IMG/VR virus record: IMGVR_UViG_3300018080_000111
Length of the DNA: 64,000 nt
Direction: 5' to 3' (one strand)
Source: a virus
Lineage: Duplodnaviria > Heunggongvirae > Uroviricota > Caudoviricetes
The stretch's first letter is position 1. Each line of letters starts with the position of its first letter. Below are positions 5,073 to 28,324 of this stretch, one piece after another. The notes below the pieces were generated by a model that saw nothing but the letters and a program-made list of their open reading frames with translations, had not been told where the DNA came from and made no database searches. Both the position numbers and the translations under genes were made by a program.

Positions 5073-5157
5073 CGGAGCGAGGAGGATTCAAACCCCCAGT
5101 GCTTTTACACACTGTGGTTTTCAAGACCGCCGCCATAAGCCATTCGGCCATCGCTCC
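5073..5157 (-). tRNA. tRNA-Ser(UGA)
   Basis: Acceptor stem GGAGCGA/TCGCTCC, anticodon loop CTTGAAA, long variable arm, T-arm GGGGG-TTTGAAT-CCTCC, discriminator G, no encoded CCA. Confidence 0.92.
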
Positions 5158-13528: not shown

Positions 13529-13639
13529 TCTCCTTCTCCTCTACATAGTTACTACTTTCCTTTGAATTAAAACAAAAAACCCTTCCCCACTTTCATTTCT
13601 GAAAGAAACAACAAATGTTGCCAAAGGGTAATAATTGAC

Positions 13640-13727
13640 TCCTCCCTTGGATATGGCTGGGAGTAACAAAACATAATTTAACTTAACTAAACTTAACGAA
13701 ATGCAACAGAACTCAACTTAGTTCGAT
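13640..13727 (-). ncRNA. Pentamer array B (11 perfect RTT-NN units plus 2 degenerate) with 3' hairpin; putative gapped guide RNA
   Basis: Plus-strand units from 13663: gtaac aaaac ataat ttaac ttaac taaac ttaac gaaat gcaac agaac tcaac; 27 bp (13640-13666) identical to 27698-27724. Confidence 0.8.
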
Positions 13728-13730
13728 GAA

Positions 13731-15695
13731 TTATTTCTGGGATTTTCGGAAAATGGATTTATACTTACTCGCCAAATCATTTCTTAAGGCCTCTTCCTTC
13801 TTTTCTTCAATTTTTTTCTTTCCACCCTTAATCGATCCTTCATCTACCCACCATAACCCCGAGAGAGGTTCTTCCTTCTTCTTTTCAAAGGCCTTTTTCA
13901 TTATATCTATATTTGGTGGGACTTTACATTCTTTCCGGGCCATCTCAACAGATACCACCACAGAGTCAGAACAGTCTTTGGATCCTTCTAAAACCAGTTC
14001 ATCCAGGCTTCCATCCTCTTTGGTAATAGATATGACCGCTTCCTTTGGATGATCTATCTTATTTGTATTGGGATCTTCTTCTAAGTGGGATAATTCAAAA
14101 TGCAGATAACCATGTCGATGACAAACCCAGCGACCATCTTTAACAAGATCATCCCTAAAACTTCGGTAATACTGGGGATTCTTATCAATAGATTCGTATT
14201 TACATTTAATTCCTGCTTTTTCAAGAATCTGGGTTGTGTCGGTACTTGCTAATTTGAGGTCAAAAGTGGCCAATGCTATATTAAACCCATAACTCTTCTT
14301 TAAAAGAATAAGAAATCTCCGTACTTTGGTTAAATCAATTTCATCATCTTCCGGGGCTTTAATTCTCATTACAAAATCTGTTTCTATGACTGGAACTTTA
14401 TCAACCCCAATACTTCCATCCTCCAAAGTTCTATTATTTTCCTTCCATCCAGAAACGCAGGACATTGCCAGTCCATATGCATCATGAGAAAAGGCGATGT
14501 CTCCATGAACATATCTTGGGATGTGCCGAGGAACCCTAATCTTATCCACATTTAGGAAATGAATTAATTCTTTTTCTTCCTCTTTCATCCCCAGATAAAT
14601 AGTGTTCATACTTACTGGATCTTCCTTTTTTGGGTCATAACAGTCCAATAGATATTTTTCGGATTTGAATAGTCGACTTTTCCTTAGGTAGCTGGCACTG
14701 ATACCTGCCAGGTCTCTTAACGCACCCGTGATGTCTTCTTGGAATGCTCTTCGAAAAACCTCGGGAACCTGTATAACTGTGAATCCGTTCGTAGTAGCTT
14801 CCTTTATCTCCTCTTTGGTTTCTATTATTTTAGACGGAGAATATATGTCGCCAATTCTGACTGGAAATTTGGAACAGCCCTCAAATTCCTTATCGTCAGC
14901 TTCCCATTTAGGAATATCAACAATATGGACGGCTTTATGTCCCTTTTTCTTTGCGATGAAAGCATTTACAAAGGATAGGTTTTCCTGCTTTGATGCGACA
15001 ATAAAGAATTTTCCTAAGGATTGTTCATTGATTACAAATCTATCCTCAAATCTACGAAGGGCAGACTCAACCGATTTAATTACTTTCTCCCTTTGTTTTA
15101 TTCCTGCCTTGGGGGAATCAACCTCATCCATAAGGGCTGCAATTACATCCTGGCCTAATTCTGCCTGTGAATAAGGGGAGGCAAGAATGTAATCAAATAG
15201 ATCAAAATGTATCTGAGGTTCCAAATTTCCTGAAATTCTTCCTTTGTTCCTAAACCACTCAGAGGATAGCAGATGGTTCTGGAGAACCCGGAATCCTTTA
15301 CTATCCCCTAGGGTTTTATTTAGGTTAAAAAAGACAATGGCCATTTTTCCGCCTGCCTGTTTGCGATAATATGCAAAAGGGTTACGTAAACAAAGGTGTA
15401 AATACATCACGAATGCTATCCCCAGAATAGCTGCACGGGATTTTCCTATTCCAATGGCACCAGTAAGGACGGGGAGGTATTTGGTGGGTTCACCCATTAG
15501 AAAGGATAGTTCTCTTCTCCACACAGGAAAGATGGCCTTTCCAGGAATCCCATCCTCATTCTTGGTAATTTTTCCTAAGAATTCCTCTCTTCGTAGAAAT
15601 TCCAAAAAGGAGACGGGGGTTTCCTTGTAATGTATTTTTGTGGTTGCTGACGTGAAGGTCGTTAACCAGCGTTGATCAGGATTCTTCTGGTTCAT
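13731..15695 (-). CDS. terL: Terminase large subunit
   Basis: Walker A VLTGAIGIGKS, Walker B ALMDEVD, RNase H-like HGDIAFSHDAYG and KDCSDSV. Confidence 0.85.
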   Translation of the reverse strand: MNQKNPDQRWLTTFTSATTKIHYKETPVSFLEFLRREEFLGKITKNEDGIPGKAIFPVWRRELSFLMGEPTKYLPVLTGAIGIGKSRAAILGIAFVMYLHLCLRNPFAYYRKQAGGKMAIVFFNLNKTLGDSKGFRVLQNHLLSSEWFRNKGRISGNLEPQIHFDLFDYILASPYSQAELGQDVIAALMDEVDSPKAGIKQREKVIKSVESALRRFEDRFVINEQSLGKFFIVASKQENLSFVNAFIAKKKGHKAVHIVDIPKWEADDKEFEGCSKFPVRIGDIYSPSKIIETKEEIKEATTNGFTVIQVPEVFRRAFQEDITGALRDLAGISASYLRKSRLFKSEKYLLDCYDPKKEDPVSMNTIYLGMKEEEKELIHFLNVDKIRVPRHIPRYVHGDIAFSHDAYGLAMSCVSGWKENNRTLEDGSIGVDKVPVIETDFVMRIKAPEDDEIDLTKVRRFLILLKKSYGFNIALATFDLKLASTDTTQILEKAGIKCKYESIDKNPQYYRSFRDDLVKDGRWVCHRHGYLHFELSHLEEDPNTNKIDHPKEAVISITKEDGSLDELVLEGSKDCSDSVVVSVEMARKECKVPPNIDIMKKAFEKKKEEPLSGLWWVDEGSIKGGKKKIEEKKEEALRNDLASKYKSIFRKSQK

Positions 15696-25355: not shown

Positions 25356-25624
25356 TCTAGTCCATTCCTCTCTTCCAGCAACTTCCTCAGATATGAATTC
25401 TCTCGACGAGTCGCCTCAAGGTCGAAGAGTTGATACTTAATACATACCCTCAGATGATCCAGGGAATCCTGTAGACTGCTGATACTCTTTTCAAGCTTTG
25501 CTCTATTGGCTTTTGCCTGTTTGGCAAGTTGAACTAATTTCTTGTGTTGTGGATCAGTAGATCCTGAGGATTCTTCAATTAATTTGTCCAGTTGTTCTTT
25601 AAGATCGTTTTCATTCATTACCAT
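25352..25624 (-). CDS. Coiled-coil hypothetical protein
   Basis: Coupled to recA and ruvC. Confidence 0.6.
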   Translation of the reverse strand: MVMNENDLKEQLDKLIEESSGSTDPQHKKLVQLAKQAKANRAKLEKSISSLQDSLDHLRVCIKYQLFDLEATRRENSYLRKLLEERNGLE

Positions 25625-26685
25625 ACCCTCGCTTTTCTCTTCTCAGTTTTATGAAGTTCTTGCCAGGTTTTCCAGATTTCTTCACGAAGTTCTTTCTCCT
25701 TATTATTTTCTTCAATATATTGAATCCACTCTACTCGAGTTTTTTCTTCATCAAATATTTTTATTGTGGTTGTTTTATTCTTTGCTTTTTGATCTCCATT
25801 TTGGAGAATATTAAGAAATTGGATATTTGTGGAGATGTCATCTAGGCCATAGGAGAATAAGATTCGGAATCTTCCTTCTTTGAATGGGGGGGCAACCTTG
25901 TTCTTCGTAATCTTGAATTTTACCCAGATTCCAATTGGGCTTCCTTCCTTGTTTTTAATCCCTGAAAGGTGCTTAAGATGTATTTGAATTGAACTATAAA
26001 ATTCCAGAGCTCTTCCACCGGAGGTAACCTCTTTGTTCGCCGAAAAAGGTCCTGCTCCGATATTATCGCGAGTTTGATCTATACAAAATAGAGTTGTATT
26101 GCTTTCCGCAAGAGCAAATAAATACTTTCGGAATCCTTTGGACATCTGTTTGGCTCTGGAGGTTCCGTACGTCCCGTCCATCATACTTTCTTCCAATTCG
26201 ACCTGGGTGGGCAACGCGCTGACACTGTCAACTACTACTATTTTCGATTCTCTGTTTAGAGGATCCTTCTTTTTGATTTGTCCAGTAGGAGTCTTATTAT
26301 AGATGATATCTGAAAGATATACATCAAAAAACTCCTCTAGGGTGGAAGGATGTCCAACAATCACTTTATCACAATCTAGTCCATATAAGGATGCAAAATG
26401 AGGATCCAAAGTATGTTCTATATCAGCATAATATGCTTTTTTTCCAGAACGTTGGGCATATCCACAAACCATTGTTGCTAAGACGGATTTAGAAGTACTT
26501 CCTCCCCCAAAGACGTGGACTATTCTACCAACCGGAATACCACCCGGATATTGGTTTGCAAGAGCTATATCTAGAGTCGTACATCCGGTAGAAAAGAAAT
26601 TGCGGACTCCCGGAAGTCCAATAATATCTGAGGATTGTTTTGCAGTCTCTTTAATCGTATCTTCTATTTTTTCATTTTTAGACAT
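25618..26685 (-). CDS. recA: RecA/UvsX-like recombinase
   Basis: STGCTTLDIAL, GIPVGRIVHVFGGGSTSKS, VVVDSVSAL, SGGRALEFYSS, KNKVAPPF; start set at MSKNEK. Confidence 0.92.
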   Translation of the reverse strand: MSKNEKIEDTIKETAKQSSDIIGLPGVRNFFSTGCTTLDIALANQYPGGIPVGRIVHVFGGGSTSKSVLATMVCGYAQRSGKKAYYADIEHTLDPHFASLYGLDCDKVIVGHPSTLEEFFDVYLSDIIYNKTPTGQIKKKDPLNRESKIVVVDSVSALPTQVELEESMMDGTYGTSRAKQMSKGFRKYLFALAESNTTLFCIDQTRDNIGAGPFSANKEVTSGGRALEFYSSIQIHLKHLSGIKNKEGSPIGIWVKFKITKNKVAPPFKEGRFRILFSYGLDDISTNIQFLNILQNGDQKAKNKTTTIKIFDEEKTRVEWIQYIEENNKEKELREEIWKTWQELHKTEKRKARVW

Positions 26686-27262
26686 TTTTATCCACCATCC
26701 TCTCAACTGAAAATCTTCCAAAAGTTCCACAGGAAGGTGCACCTGGCCTCCAATGACCTATTCCAATAAATTCACCAGCAACCTGCAAATGTTCCAAAAC
26801 AATTTGTTCATTTAGGGCCCCAGCAATTGTAGGATAAACCACTGTAAGAGTTCCTTCCCATTTAGGGATCTTTGGGTATCTTCTTGAAATCCTTCCTCCA
26901 TCTGGTTTTCCATTAGAGGAGACAAAAGATTTTCTTCCTTGAATTGTATCTTTGGTAAGTTCGGTAACTATATCTCCCTCAATTTGTATCAATCTAATAT
27001 AATGGACTAAACCTTTTCCTCTTTTTCCTCCTCCTACTCTTTTTCCTAAAAGTTTGGCAGCAGGCTCCAGAGTTCTCTTTAGAAGAAAACCTGGGATGAT
27101 TACCTTTCCATCCTCATTGTAATGGGCTCTTTCCTTCCAATACCTCTCTTCAAATTGTTGAGGGGTTTCACCCTCTTCTTTTTCCTGATCGATGTATTGA
27201 TCAAACAGAACAGGACTGATACTTTTAAACTTTATTTTGATTCGTTTAACTAATTCATCCAT
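26678..27262 (-). CDS. Stand-alone RAMP/Cas7-like protein (Vipr-like), putative guide-binding filament subunit
   Basis: N-terminal IKFKSISPVLF, IIPGFLLKRTL (cf. iPGSslKG of Csm3/Cas7 RAMPs), C-terminal Gly-rich loop GEFIGIGHWRP...GTFGRFSVE; no other cas genes in the window. Confidence 0.72.
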   Translation of the reverse strand: MDELVKRIKIKFKSISPVLFDQYIDQEKEEGETPQQFEERYWKERAHYNEDGKVIIPGFLLKRTLEPAAKLLGKRVGGGKRGKGLVHYIRLIQIEGDIVTELTKDTIQGRKSFVSSNGKPDGGRISRRYPKIPKWEGTLTVVYPTIAGALNEQIVLEHLQVAGEFIGIGHWRPGAPSCGTFGRFSVERMVDKNV

Positions 27263-27698
27263 CTTTCTTCTCACTGTAAAAGGCAAATTTCAATAACTTC
27301 TTGAATTCTTTATCTTCTTTCTCTTTCAAACAACTATTCATTAAAGGAAGGAAACTAACCCCATTCTCTTTACAAATAAAGGACTTCTTCTTATCCCTTG
27401 CCATTTGTTTCCTATCCGTAAGATGCTGGAATCCTCCTGGCTCTATTGCACATACTAACTTTCCGTGTCGGAATACTGAAATGTCAATATGTGCATTTTT
27501 GTTCTTCCAGAAACTCTTGTATTTAGATGGCTCAGGAAAGAGTTCATATAGAGGCTGTTTTACAACAAAAGCCAGTTTTGGAAAACTTCGTTGTAGCCAA
27601 CAAACGAACTCCTCAATTGTTTTATTATCCGAATACATAAAGTAAAACCCCGACCAAGCATAATAATATGCAAGCACAATCGCTATCGGAAAATACAT
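27255..27698 (-). CDS. PD-(D/E)XK-like endonuclease (DUF559/DUF2726-like)
   Basis: HIDISV...AIEPGGFQH...QMARDKKKSFICKENGV; the SD is the 3' arm of the array hairpin; the stop overlaps the RAMP gene start. Confidence 0.55.
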   Translation of the reverse strand: MYFPIAIVLAYYYAWSGFYFMYSDNKTIEEFVCWLQRSFPKLAFVVKQPLYELFPEPSKYKSFWKNKNAHIDISVFRHGKLVCAIEPGGFQHLTDRKQMARDKKKSFICKENGVSFLPLMNSCLKEKEDKEFKKLLKFAFYSEKKDG

Positions 27699-27800
27699 CC
27701 TCCCTTGGATATGGCTGGGAGTAATAAAATGGAACGGAACGCAACACAACTTAACTTAATTTAAAACAATGCAACTTAACAAAACTTAATTCAACATAAT
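27698..27800 (-). ncRNA. Pentamer array A (16 RTT-NN units) with 3' hairpin; putative gapped guide RNA
   Basis: 27721-27800 parses exactly into 16 NN-AAY units on the plus strand (one unit ttaaa), followed on the minus strand by the CTCCC-N12-GGGAG hairpin shared with array B. Confidence 0.85.
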
Positions 27801-28324
27801 TAGAAATCATTTTCCAGATTCCTTTCCTCTTCTACTTCTCTTTCAAAGGACTTATCGAGTTCTCTTTCCTCCCCTAATAAACTCTGGTTCCCGTAATATT
27901 TATGAACAAACAAAGATACTAAACTTTGCAGCATACTCTTTCTTTGTCCCATACTATCTACTAGGATGGAGAAACCATCAGCTACTTTTGAAACCTCAAT
28001 AAGATCCCTTTTAGCCTCCTGATACGATTCTTGAATTGTTAAGGTTTCATTCACCGCGTCATTCGTTACTTTTCCCATAAGCCCAAATTCTTCTGGATTC
28101 CTTCGGATTCTTGATTTGAGATCAGCCTCCAAAAAATCTAGAGTATCTTTTGCCCTTTTTGCCAAGGATTTAGCAAGAGTGGATAACTCCCCAATTTCAT
28201 GATAAAGTTGCGGTTGTCTTCGACAAGCCTCATCAAGTTCATGAGCATTAATAGGAAGATTGGCTTTACACTCCTGTAAGGACTCTTGTAAATCATTTAA
28301 TTCGGATTCAAGTTCTTGATTCAT
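27800..28324 (-). CDS. UvsY-like recombination mediator
   Basis: Helical protein (INAHELDEACRRQPQLY...KVTNDAVNE) lying between SSB and recA. Confidence 0.6.
   Translation of the reverse strand: MNQELESELNDLQESLQECKANLPINAHELDEACRRQPQLYHEIGELSTLAKSLAKRAKDTLDFLEADLKSRIRRNPEEFGLMGKVTNDAVNETLTIQESYQEAKRDLIEVSKVADGFSILVDSMGQRKSMLQSLVSLFVHKYYGNQSLLGEERELDKSFEREVEEERNLENDF

What the first reader, a model, noticed from the sequence alone, without database searches (positions are those of the whole stretch)
25618..27800. Putative RNA-guided system: RAMP-like protein + nuclease + pentamer guide array read through a gapped NN-skip code (VIPR-like)
Seen in the sequence (minus strand): 16 RTT-NN pentamers, then a conserved hairpin, a PD-(D/E)XK-like gene, a 194-aa protein with RAMP/Cas7 hallmarks (KSISP, IPGxxLK, C-terminal Gly loop GIGHWRP...GRF), then recA; the three genes are translationally coupled. 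No CRISPR array or other cas genes are present. Known: RAMPs polymerise along guide RNAs at a fixed nucleotide step. From memory, recently reported phage VIPR systems pair a single RAMP with RNAs of alternating constant trinucleotide and variable dinucleotide, reported as GGY-NN; here the constant unit is RTT. Inference: each subunit grips RUU and displays NN for pairing, so this is a variant clade with a possible dedicated nuclease.
Basis: partly seen in the sequence, partly recalled or inferred. Interest (0 to 1): 0.95.

Follow-up and report, generated by a model that had tools for sequence, protein, structure and literature searches.

The report
Phage VIPR system with RUU repeats
This phage carries a variant of the recently described VIPR RNA-guided system whose guide RNAs use RUU instead of GGY as the fixed part of each five-base repeat, and the guides read, two bases in every three, as essential genes of rival phages and possibly the host's recA.

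Summary
On the minus strand, 27800..27721 is 16 pentamers (15 RTT-NN, one TTT-NN). They run straight into a 23-nt hairpin tail, then a Vsr-like nuclease gene, a 194-aa RAMP gene and recA, with 8-nt start/stop overlaps.

All seven loci fetched for clade homologues (47-80% identical proteins) carry RTT-NN arrays on the gene strand, with variable NN and hairpins whose stems change in a compensating way.

Read by the published rule (NN, skip one base):
- Guide 2 matches the 3' end of the probable terminase gene of two related phages, 21/22. The phage's own copy is synonymously recoded (15/22).
- Guide 1 matches recA: own copy 24/32, rival phages 26-27/32, Opitutae chromosomal recA 28/32 with 14 perfect consecutive units.

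VIPR is published, and non-GGY repeats have been reported in general. This is therefore a new variant of a known kind, not a new kind.

The parts
27721..27800 (-). vrRNA guide 1 (W_1): 16 pentamers RUU-NN. NN string: AT GA AA TT AA GC GT AA AA AA GT GC CC CC TT AC.
   Evidence: The first base is the last base of the stop codon of the upstream gene.
27699..27721 (-). Invariant 3' tail of guide 1. The hairpin CUCCC-12 nt-GGGAG begins at the final C of the last unit (RUUAC) and is followed by G.
   Evidence: The stem covaries across loci.
27645..27690 (-). Conserved structured spacer between the tail and the vap start. It is shared with locus L002 only, and its role is unknown.
27255..27638 (-). 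vap-like accessory gene, 127 aa. It has a Vsr/DUF559-like PD-(D/E)XK nuclease fold. Invariant residues are H51, E67, H73, D83 and K86; D53 is nearly invariant.
   Evidence: A homologous gene of about 125 aa precedes vipr in L001, L002, L004, L005 and L006.
26678..27262 (-). vipr homologue, 194 aa. It is a single-RRM RAMP with the G-loop GIGHWRPGAPSCGTFGRF.
25618..26685 (-). The phage's own recA/UvsX-like gene. It overlaps the vipr stop by 8 nt.
25880..25926 (-). Site in the phage's own recA that corresponds to guide 1 (KFKITKNKVAPPFK). It matches 24/32 guide bases, with mismatches in units 1, 2, 6, 7 and 16.
13663..13717 (-). vrRNA guide 2 (W_2): 11 pentamers RUU-NN. NN string: GA CT GC TC AA TA AA AA AT TT AC. 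It is a solo guide about 14 kb from vipr.
13641..13663 (-). Invariant 3' tail of guide 2, identical to that of guide 1.
13747..13778 (-). Site in the phage's own probable terminase gene that corresponds to guide 2 (DLASKYKSIFR). It matches 15/22 guide bases. Leu and Ser are recoded synonymously relative to the rival phages.
13731..15695 (-). Probable terminase large subunit, 654 aa. Guide 2 begins about 10 nt after its stop codon.
   Evidence: a language-model look-alike only. No Pfam or PHROG match.
27800..28324 (-). Conserved upstream gene of unknown function (phrog_1069/2058). In relatives it directly precedes recA, which marks the VIPR cassette as an insertion.

Best explanation
The region is a working-looking VIPR (Viral Interference Programmable Repeat) system in a large freshwater phage. 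Its guide RNAs use RUU, not GGY, as the fixed trinucleotide.

**Proposed mechanism, by homology with SUSP1 VIPR.** One Vipr protomer binds each pentamer. Adjacent protomers sequester R-U-U and present the two variable bases. The filament pairs those dinucleotides with double-stranded DNA, skipping every third target base, so the guide reads codon positions 1 and 2 and ignores the wobble base. The 3' hairpin caps the filament.

**Targets.** Guide 2 is aimed at the 3' end of the probable terminase gene of closely related phages. Guide 1 is aimed at recA of related phages and/or the host. The phage's own copies of both genes lie next to the guides and are mismatched, so they escape.

**Outcome at the target.** It is either a transcription block, as in SUSP1, or cutting by the Vsr-like Vap. 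I lean slightly towards cutting because the nuclease residues are conserved, but this step is inferred.

**Shown here.**
- Homology of the protein to Vipr.
- The layout of the arrays.
- Co-occurrence of arrays and gene across loci.
- Covariation of the hairpin stem.
- The target matches.

**Inferred.**
- Transcription and processing of the arrays.
- RNA binding.
- DNA binding.
- Vap activity.
- The biological outcome.
For: **Homology to Vipr.**
- A profile of 27 clade members hits PDB 36pp_D, 'SUSP1 Vipr protein', at E 7.9e-7 over residues 26-188.
- hhalign against SUSP1 Vipr gives 96.6% probability, E 6.4e-10.
- Both proteins match phrog_4652 (3.5e-11; 1.4e-96).

**Fold.**
- The AF2 model has pLDDT 88.6.
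- Foldseek's top hits are type VII Cas7 and Csm3, E 5e-9.

**Arrays.**
- All loci fetched for clade homologues (L001-L007) carry RTT-NN arrays on the gene strand. Each ends in RTTAC followed by a hairpin.
- The logo over 180 units is G65/A32, T98, T100, N, N.
- Hairpin stems: UCCC/GGGA, CCAC/GUGG, UGCC/GGCA, UCUC/GAGA, UCCU/AGGA, CGCC/GGCG, UUCU/AGAA. Four of five pairs change on both sides. Several loops are UUCG on the gene strand.

**Guide 2 target.**
- The 10-unit one-skip pattern finds two related phages in IMG/VR, 21/22, in frame at '...DLASKYKNIFKRSQM*'.
- The zero-skip and two-skip versions find nothing.
- The phage's own copy scores 15/22, with Leu CTC to TTG and Ser TCA to AGT.

**Guide 1 target.**
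- The best one-skip hit in the window is the phage's own recA, 24/32. The next best is 20, and other skip rules reach at most 20.
- Relatives' recA score 22-27/32.
- Exact 26-base search: all 14 hits are a single recA type, namely 8 Verrucomicrobiota/Opitutae genomes (by record title) and 6 metagenome contigs. In every hit units 3-16 match 28/28 while the wobble bases vary.
- 85 of 401 Verrucomicrobiota genomes match with at most 2 mismatches. The backwards control pattern matches 0.

**Further support.**
- A guide from L006 matches the clamp-loader 3' end of L007 at 27/34, with 11 contiguous units. Its own copy scores 21/34.
- Across 14 guides and 265 kb, outliers appear only under the one-skip rule.
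- Synteny shows the cassette is an insertion between a conserved gene and recA.
Against: - There are no expression data, and no sigma-70-like promoter was found upstream of either array. The arrays begin at or just after upstream stop codons, so transcription and processing are assumed.
- Only 3 of 14 guides have an identified target. Two other guides gave no exact match in IMG/VR.
- The guide 1 match rests partly on the very conserved RecA motif KNKVAPPF, which inflates scores for any recA.
- Loci L009-L026 were fetched with one-skip patterns, so they are not an unbiased sample for the skip rule. The window itself and L027-L038 are unbiased.
- The SUSP1 residues that read the two guanines are not conserved. 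D177 is H here, R138 is Y/F, and H17 lies in a segment this clade lacks. The binding mode for RUU is therefore extrapolated.
- A more distant relative with RTT-NN repeats has A, not H, at the D177 position. No single residue explains the switch.
- Vap is below the Pfam cut-offs (DUF2726, 20.5 bits against 24.7).
Confidence: 0.82

Rival explanations
1. Guide 1 is aimed at the host's chromosomal recA, not at rival phages. The phage would shut down or cut host recA (SOS response, prophage induction, RecA-dependent defences). It would replace the function with its own guide-resistant recA, encoded in the same overlapping gene string.
For: - The best match anywhere is bacterial. Units 3-16 match 28/28 in recA of 8 Opitutae/Verrucomicrobiota genomes and 6 metagenome contigs, one of them 1 Mb long. 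The last unit, AC (Thr), matches although it was not part of the search pattern.
- No other phylum among 185,579 species gave an exact hit.
- The phage's own recA has 8 mismatched bases, including a Val to Thr change at unit 7 that is unique among 13 relatives.
Against: - The host is unknown. The phage is 38.5% GC, and the matching genomes are 51-61%.
- The other two guides with known targets hit related phages, not hosts.
- Rival phage recA already reach 81-84% NN match, above the 80% cut-off used in the VIPR paper.
- The final AC unit is fixed in every guide, so its match may be coincidence.
- With 185,579 species and a largely invariant motif, some lineage matching the few variable units is not very improbable.
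- Guide 2 has no match in 301 Opitutales genomes.
- The phage tRNA-Ser gives no host signal.
Confidence: 0.3
2. The system only silences transcription, as SUSP1 VIPR does. On this reading Vap is a DNA-binding helper without nuclease activity.
For: - In SUSP1 the system represses transcription, and Vap1 is a predicted DNA-binding protein needed for protection (10.64898/2026.04.26.720920; 10.64898/2026.10.15.759431).
- That paper reports predicted nucleases only in the host-encoded types III and V, not in phage-encoded ones.
Against: - Vap here has a Vsr/DUF559-like fold, with E67 and H73 invariant and D53 nearly invariant across 11 homologues.
- Both phage targets lie at the 3' ends of genes, a poor place to block transcription of that gene.
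Confidence: 0.4
3. The pentamer tracts act as DNA rather than as guide RNAs. They could be protein-binding iterons, bent DNA, or recombination or packaging signals, and their nearness to the RAMP gene would be incidental.
For: No transcript evidence exists, and no promoter was predicted.
Against: - Arrays accompany the gene in every clade locus fetched, always on the gene strand.
- The trinucleotide is conserved and the dinucleotides are free.
- The abutting hairpin keeps pairing through changes on both sides, and UUCG loops occur on one strand only.
- The NN strings match coding sequences under the one-skip rule only.
- The protein is homologous to a solved RNA-binding Vipr.
Confidence: 0.03
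4. The cassette is a decaying relic that no longer functions.
For: Relatives show decay. L007 has vipr cut to residues 88-192. L027 and L028 keep only an array and a 107-aa vap remnant.
Against: - In the window both genes are full length and keep all residues that are invariant in the clade.
- The two tails are identical over 23 nt.
- The phage's own target sites are recoded, which implies recent selection.
Confidence: 0.05

Closest known systems
SUSP1 / Pseudomonas fulva type II VIPR (bioRxiv 10.64898/2026.04.26.720920, 10.64898/2026.04.26.720927; PDB 36pp)
   Same: - A homologous single-RRM RAMP of about 195 aa, in the same PHROG.
- Guides of 9-16 five-base units with three fixed and two variable bases, followed by an invariant 3' tail.
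- A two-gene vipr plus vap locus in a phage.
- Targets fit the one-base-skip rule, with the skip base on the codon wobble position and on either strand.
- Targets lie in competing phage elements, and there is no self-match of 80% or more.
   Different: - The fixed unit is RUU, not GGY.
- The tail is a plain 5-6 bp hairpin abutting the last unit, not a pseudoknot.
- The G-loop carries H in place of D177 and a 6-residue insert (GAPSCG).
- R138 is Y/F, and the segment holding H17 is absent.
- Gene order is vap then vipr, and Vap is a Vsr-like nuclease fold rather than a winged-helix or HTH DNA binder (phrog_5926 in SUSP1).
- Protein identity is only about 26%.
Non-canonical VIPR arrays found by entropy periodicity (bioRxiv 10.64898/2026.10.21.760802)
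   Same: Five-base repeats whose fixed trinucleotide is not GGY, lying next to Vipr-like folds. The text names GAC, CAC, WGT and TGH as examples among 21 clusters.
   Different: RTT/NN is not named in the text I could read. The full list is in a figure (S10A) that is not held, so I cannot tell whether this motif is already there. That paper gives no targets for these systems.
Solo vrRNAs of SUSP1-like phages and satellites (bioRxiv 10.64898/2026.10.15.759431)
   Same: - Guide 2 stands alone, 14 kb from vipr.
- Relatives L027, L028 and L007 keep guides without an intact vipr.
- Guides are aimed at relatives' genes.
   Different: The targets here are replication and packaging genes (probable terminase, clamp loader, recA). 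Each guide lies beside the carrier's own mismatched copy of its target.
Cas7/Csm3 backbone subunits of class 1 CRISPR-Cas (types III and VII)
   Different: There is no CRISPR array and no other cas genes. The step is 5 nt with 2 pairing bases, not 6 nt with 5 pairing bases. There is a single RRM.

Membership tests
VIPR system | Protein homologous to a characterised Vipr | tested here: met
   PDB 36pp_D SUSP1 Vipr, E 7.9e-7. hhalign 96.6%. Shared phrog_4652.
VIPR system | Tandem five-base repeats (three conserved and two hypervariable bases, about 9-16 units) beside vipr | tested here: met
   Arrays of 16 and 11 units in the window, and 11-19 units in the loci fetched for clade homologues (L001-L007).
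VIPR system | Conserved trinucleotide is GGY, or one of the published variants NNNGG, YNNNG, NNNNG | tested here: not met
   Over 180 units the unit is R-T-T: G65/A32, T98, T100. This places it outside the discovery paper's repeat definitions. It lies within the wider 'non-canonical' class later reported.
VIPR system | Invariant structured 3' tail after the repeats | tested here: met
   An identical 23-nt tail on both guides. The hairpin sits at the same position in 10 of 11 arrays, with compensating stem changes. It is a hairpin, not a pseudoknot.
VIPR system | Minimal locus (vipr plus one accessory gene) in a virus, without CRISPR array or cas genes | tested here: met
   Phage context: gp32-like SSB, UvsX-like recA, clamp loader, resolvase.
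VIPR system | NN dinucleotides specify DNA targets with one skipped base per unit | tested here: met
   This is computational only. Outlier matches appear only under the one-skip rule. For guide 2, skip-1 gives 2 hits, and skip-0 and skip-2 give 0. Skip bases fall on wobble positions.
VIPR system | vrRNA is expressed and co-purifies with Vipr; the complex binds DNA | not testable with these tools
   Needs small-RNA sequencing, pull-down and binding assays.
VIPR system | SUSP1 residues that hold GGY (H17, D177, R138, W178, R179) | tested here: not met
   W178 and R179 are kept (W171, R172). D177 is H170. R138 is Y129. H17 lies in a segment absent here. This is expected if the bound trinucleotide differs.
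Class 1 CRISPR-Cas effector (Cas7) | CRISPR array and partner cas genes (Cas5, large subunit and others) | tested here: not met
   No repeat-spacer array, and none of the neighbouring ORFs scanned against Pfam matched a cas family.
Vsr / DUF559-like PD-(D/E)XK nucleases (for Vap) | Restriction-endonuclease-like fold with conserved acidic and His residues | tested here: met
Vsr / DUF559-like PD-(D/E)XK nucleases (for Vap) | Match to a curated family model above its cut-off | tested here: inconclusive
   DUF2726 at 20.5 bits against a 24.7 cut-off. MTES_1575 at 16.4 bits against 38.2.

The most novel reading that the evidence does not exclude
A phage uses a VIPR guide against a host housekeeping gene. 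Guide 1 is programmed to the chromosomal recA of its verrucomicrobial (Opitutae) host, with 14 of 16 units perfect. The same overlapping gene string supplies a guide-resistant phage recA. This would be RNA-guided replacement of a host function.

More generally, every guide with a known target sits beside the carrier's own mismatched copy of that gene. Guide and immune allele would then behave as a linked poison-antidote pair that recombination between co-infecting relatives cannot separate.
Probability: 0.3. Interest if true: 0.85.

Novelty: new variant of a known kind. Interest (0 to 1): 0.62.

Why it matters
- **Natural contrast to the solved SUSP1 complex.** VIPR was described only in 2026, and its structural rules come from GGY systems. 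A natural system that holds RUU has both guanine-reading residues replaced and a longer glycine loop. It offers a direct way to learn how Vipr chooses its fixed trinucleotide, and whether orthogonal Vipr/vrRNA pairs can work side by side.
- **Concrete, testable targets.** The predicted targets are a rival's probable terminase gene, a clamp-loader gene and recA.
- **Self-immunity.** The carrier's own copies show synonymous recoding, including codon-family switches for Ser, Leu and Arg.
- **Linkage.** Each guide lies tightly linked to the carrier's own mismatched copy of its target gene. This was not noted in the VIPR papers I read.
- **A nuclease in a phage system.** A Vsr-like nuclease partner in a phage-encoded system would widen what phage VIPRs are thought to do.
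- **Host recA.** If the host recA reading holds, VIPR would also be a host-takeover tool.

Tried and rejected
- Tandem Repeats Finder does not report the arrays because the NN positions are too variable. A phase-aware scan was needed.
- No whole genome is held for the window.
- Rfam has no family at either array. The only hit in the window is one tRNA-Ser.
- The sigma-70 and terminator scans gave nothing useful at either array.
- tblastn of the protein against GenBank phages found only weak partial hits in mycobacteriophages. The clade is absent from cultured phages there.
- IMG/VR holds only one clade member, a truncated one.
- Guide 2 has no match in five Opitutae genomes with up to 3 mismatches. 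It has none in 301 Opitutales genomes with up to 2 mismatches.
- Guides L004c and L001b have no exact match in IMG/VR.
- The phage tRNA-Ser matches Opitutae genomes only generically, 86% over 35 nt, so it gives no host signal.
- MAFFT could not align the 3' halves of the hairpins because loop lengths differ. Stem covariation was therefore read from the sequences and from the single-sequence folds.
- Single-sequence folding energies of the short hairpins are not significant on their own.
- Foldseek alone gave only weak rows for Vap, best E 4e-3. The structural aligner was needed.
- A profile of Vap has no sequence match in the PDB.
- Complex prediction for Vipr with Vap gave weak support only. 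The score was 0.35 and the best of 3 controls 0.00. That mark was reached by 58 of 80 solved complexes and 2 of 110 mismatched pairs, but at 0.60 or under by only 7 of those 80 solved complexes and by both mismatches that passed. The runs agree in at least 90% of contacts, and the partner's pLDDT is at least 83. My own alignments were used, so the counts hold only roughly. I do not count this as evidence either way.
- I first read an upstream TTG at 27749 as the vap start. I rejected it because the homologous stretch in L002 contains a stop codon.
- I had hoped that His at the D177 position explains RUU binding. I dropped this as a sole explanation because a distant RTT-type relative has Ala there.
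Full report
**1. What is there**

On the minus strand, 27800..27721 consists of 16 five-base units. Fifteen are RTT-NN and one is TTT-NN. A phase-aware scan reaches 10 of 10 units. Thirty Markov shuffles of the window never exceed 6 of 10, and only two places in the 64 kb stand out.

It is 11 RTT-NN units at 13717..13663. Both arrays run without a gap into the same 23 bases, CTCCCAGCCATATCCAAGGGAGG. That sequence has 2 exact matches in the window and 0 in 100 shuffles. It folds as a 5-bp stem that starts at the last C of the final unit.

Three genes follow array 1, with 8-nt start/stop overlaps:
- a 127-aa gene (27638..27255);
- a 194-aa gene (27262..26678);
- a recA/UvsX-like gene (26685..25618; Pfam RecA 4.8e-47).

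The window has no CRISPR-like repeat array. The surroundings are those of a phage: gp32-like single-strand binding protein, clamp loader, Holliday junction resolvase, SbcC-like ATPase. GC content is 38.5%. No whole genome is held for the window.

**2. The 194-aa protein is a Vipr**

Pfam has nothing for it, but PHROGs places it in phrog_4652 (3.5e-11).

A search of 5.8 billion proteins found 27 close relatives, 47-100% identical, all from metagenomes. A profile of these hits 1,270 cluster representatives in a 1.84-billion-protein library. The score drops steeply after the protein's own clade.

The same profile finds one significant entry in the Protein Data Bank: 36pp_D, 'SUSP1 Vipr protein', E 7.9e-7, aligned over nearly the whole length including GxGxWRP...FGRFSVE.

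I fetched phage SUSP1 (KT454805.2) and checked three things:
- its vipr gene lies beside YNNGG arrays;
- it belongs to phrog_4652 (1.4e-96);
- it aligns to the clade profile with 96.6% probability.

**3. The arrays belong to the protein**

I fetched seven loci for clade homologues from different metagenomes. Every one carries one to three RTT-NN arrays of 11-19 units on the gene strand. The arrays lie upstream, downstream or on both sides of the gene.

Over 180 units the logo is G 65% / A 32%, T 98%, T 100%, then two free positions.

Every array ends in RTTAC. In 10 of 11 cases a hairpin begins at that final C. The stems differ between loci but always pair: UCCC/GGGA, CCAC/GUGG, UGCC/GGCA, UCUC/GAGA, UCCU/AGGA, CGCC/GGCG, UUCU/AGAA. 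Four of the five pairs therefore change on both sides. Several loops are UUCG on the gene strand, which argues that this strand is the RNA.

The repeat tracts are no more structured than shuffles (z 0.5 and -0.4), as expected for a guide held single-stranded.

A homologous gene of about 125 aa precedes vipr in five of the loci.

**4. What the guides read**

The VIPR paper established that the NN pairs bind DNA with one skipped base per unit, usually the codon wobble base (10.64898/2026.04.26.720920). I applied that rule here.

*Guide 2.* It reads [DE]LAS[KN]Y[KN][KN][IM][FL]T.
- Its 10-unit pattern has two exact matches in IMG/VR. Both are in related phages, whose RecA is 74% identical to the window's. 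Both are in frame at the end of the homologue of the 654-aa gene that lies just upstream of guide 2: '...QDLASKYKNIFKRSQM*', 21 of 22 bases.
- The same bases arranged with zero or two skipped positions find nothing.
- The window's own gene encodes DLASKYKSIF but matches only 15 of 22. Leu is TTG instead of CTC, Ser is AGT instead of TCA, and Asn has become Ser.
- The gene is probably the large terminase, on a language-model look-alike only. No HMM supports that name.

*Guide from locus L006.* It matches the 3' end of the clamp-loader gene of L007 at 27 of 34 bases, with 11 perfect consecutive units, on the antisense strand and again with skips on wobble bases. L006's own clamp-loader gene ends one base before that guide. 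It matches only 21 of 34, with Arg CGA instead of AGA.

*Guide 1.* It reads ..K[FL]KAVKNKVAPPFT, the conserved RecA motif.
- In the window its best one-skip match is the phage's own recA, 24 of 32. The next best is 20, and other skip rules reach at most 20.
- The twelve relatives' recA genes, fetched by protein similarity, score 22-27.
- An exact search for units 3-15 (26 fixed bases) found 8 genomes among 185,579 species. All are Verrucomicrobiota, mostly Opitutae. It also found 6 metagenome contigs. All 14 hits are the same chromosomal recA type. In all of them units 3-16 match 28 of 28 while the wobble bases vary.
- With up to 2 mismatches, 85 of 401 Verrucomicrobiota genomes match once each. 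A backwards control pattern matches none.

*All guides together.* Across 14 guides and 265 kb of phage sequence, outliers appear only under the one-skip rule.

**5. Reading of the targets**

Two guides clearly point at essential genes of related phages. That fits the published role of VIPR in conflict between viral elements.

For guide 1, two readings stay open:
- rival phage recA (81-84% NN match, above the paper's 80% cut-off, while the phage's own copy at 75% falls below it);
- host recA (87.5%, with all mismatches in the two 5' units).

I weight the rival-phage reading somewhat higher, for four reasons:
- the other guides with known targets hit phages;
- the last AC unit is fixed in every guide;
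- most of the motif is invariant in all recA genes;
- the host is unknown and the GC gap is large.

Guide 2 has no match in Opitutales genomes.

One regularity stands out. All three guides with known targets lie within 2 kb of the carrier's own mismatched copy of the target, and two of them within about 50 nt. My inference is that tight linkage keeps recombination between co-infecting relatives from producing a genome that carries the guide together with a sensitive allele.

Synteny supports mobility and turnover of the cassette:
- relatives have the upstream gene directly followed by recA;
- the window has guide 1, vap and vipr inserted between them;
- L007 has a truncated vipr at the same site;
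- L027 and L028 keep only a guide and a vap remnant.

**6. How RUU might be held**

In the SUSP1 structure, G1 is read by H17 and D177. G2 is held by R138 and W178. The pyrimidine sits in a pocket with R179 (10.64898/2026.04.26.720927).

In this clade:
- W and R are kept (W171, R172);
- D177 is an invariant His;
- R138 is Tyr or Phe;
- the segment with H17 is missing;
- the glycine loop is six residues longer.

That is what one would expect if the two guanines were replaced while a pyrimidine stayed at position 3.

No single residue explains the switch. A 32%-identical relative with RTT-NN repeats has Ala at the D177 position. A 34%-identical relative with Arg there uses GAT-NN.

**7. The accessory protein**

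Pfam gives only sub-threshold hits (DUF2726, MTES_1575). The model is confident (pLDDT 89.2).

H51, E67, H73, D83 and K86 are invariant in 11 homologues, and D53 is nearly invariant.

The VIPR paper reports predicted nucleases only in host-encoded types. A phage-encoded one is therefore notable. Its activity is untested.

**8. Comparison with what is known, and novelty**

VIPR is published, with seven types. The repeat variants listed in its methods are NNNGG, YNNNG and NNNNG.

A later preprint reports 21 clusters with other fixed trinucleotides and names GAC, CAC, WGT and TGH (10.64898/2026.10.21.760802). RTT is not named in the text I could read, but the full list is in a figure that is not held.

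All 27 clade members come from metagenome sources and none from NCBI. The clade was therefore probably outside the NCBI-based census of the discovery paper; this is inference.

I file the finding as a new variant of a known kind. The system meets every testable defining feature of VIPR except the identity of the fixed trinucleotide and the residues that hold it.

**9. Limits**

- Nothing here shows transcription, processing, RNA binding, DNA binding or nuclease activity.
- No promoter was predicted. The arrays start at upstream stop codons, which suggests read-through transcription and trimming.
- Eleven of 14 guides have no identified target.
- The host is unknown.

Noticed in passing
window 27645-27690 (minus); L002 3478-3530: A structured element of about 50 nt lies between the guide tail and the vap start. 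Its sequence is CCGAUAGCRAUURUGCUUGCAUA-NNNN-UAUGCUUGGUCGG. It is shared by the window and L002 and is absent from L004 and L006. In L002 it contains a stop codon, so it is non-coding. The L002 fold has z -2.8. Its role is unknown.
   Followed up: partly
L025 162-3425; L026 4217-7480: In the two rival phages targeted by guide 2, the probable terminase gene is split. Residues 1-82 and 84-653 lie about 1.3 kb apart, as if an intron, intein or homing element were inserted.
   Followed up: no
L007 3914-4315; L027 4812-5271; L028 2744-3203: These are decayed cassettes in relatives. In L007 the guide tail is fused directly to vipr residue 88. L027 and L028 keep a guide plus a 107-aa vap remnant, with no vipr within the stretch held. 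The L027 and L028 guides differ by one NN base.
   Followed up: partly
L040 116-1546; L041 3117-3156: More distant Vipr relatives use other units. L040 (34% identical, G-loop GIGRWRP) is flanked by six GAT-NN arrays. L041 (32% identical, G-loop GLLAWRP, in a RecT/SSB module) is followed by an RTT-NN array that runs off the contig end.
   Followed up: partly
window 13663-13778 and 25880-27800; L006 9275-9410: Each guide with an identified target lies next to the carrier's own mismatched copy of that target. Two are within about 50 nt and one within 1.9 kb. The mismatches include synonymous codon-family switches: Ser TCA to AGT, Leu CTC to TTG, Arg AGA to CGA.
   Followed up: partly
window 5073-5157 (minus): A single tRNA-Ser (anticodon TGA) is the only Rfam or ARAGORN hit in the window. 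It gave no usable host signal.
   Followed up: partly
window 13540-13640 (minus): Downstream of the guide 2 tail there is a long-range pairing (ACCCUU...AAGGGU) followed by a run of U. It looks like a terminator, but the simple scan did not call it.
   Followed up: no
L004 9476-9615: One 19-unit array contains an internal GTTAC. It is followed by two successive hairpins before the next array, so it may encode two guides or a staggered arrangement.
   Followed up: no
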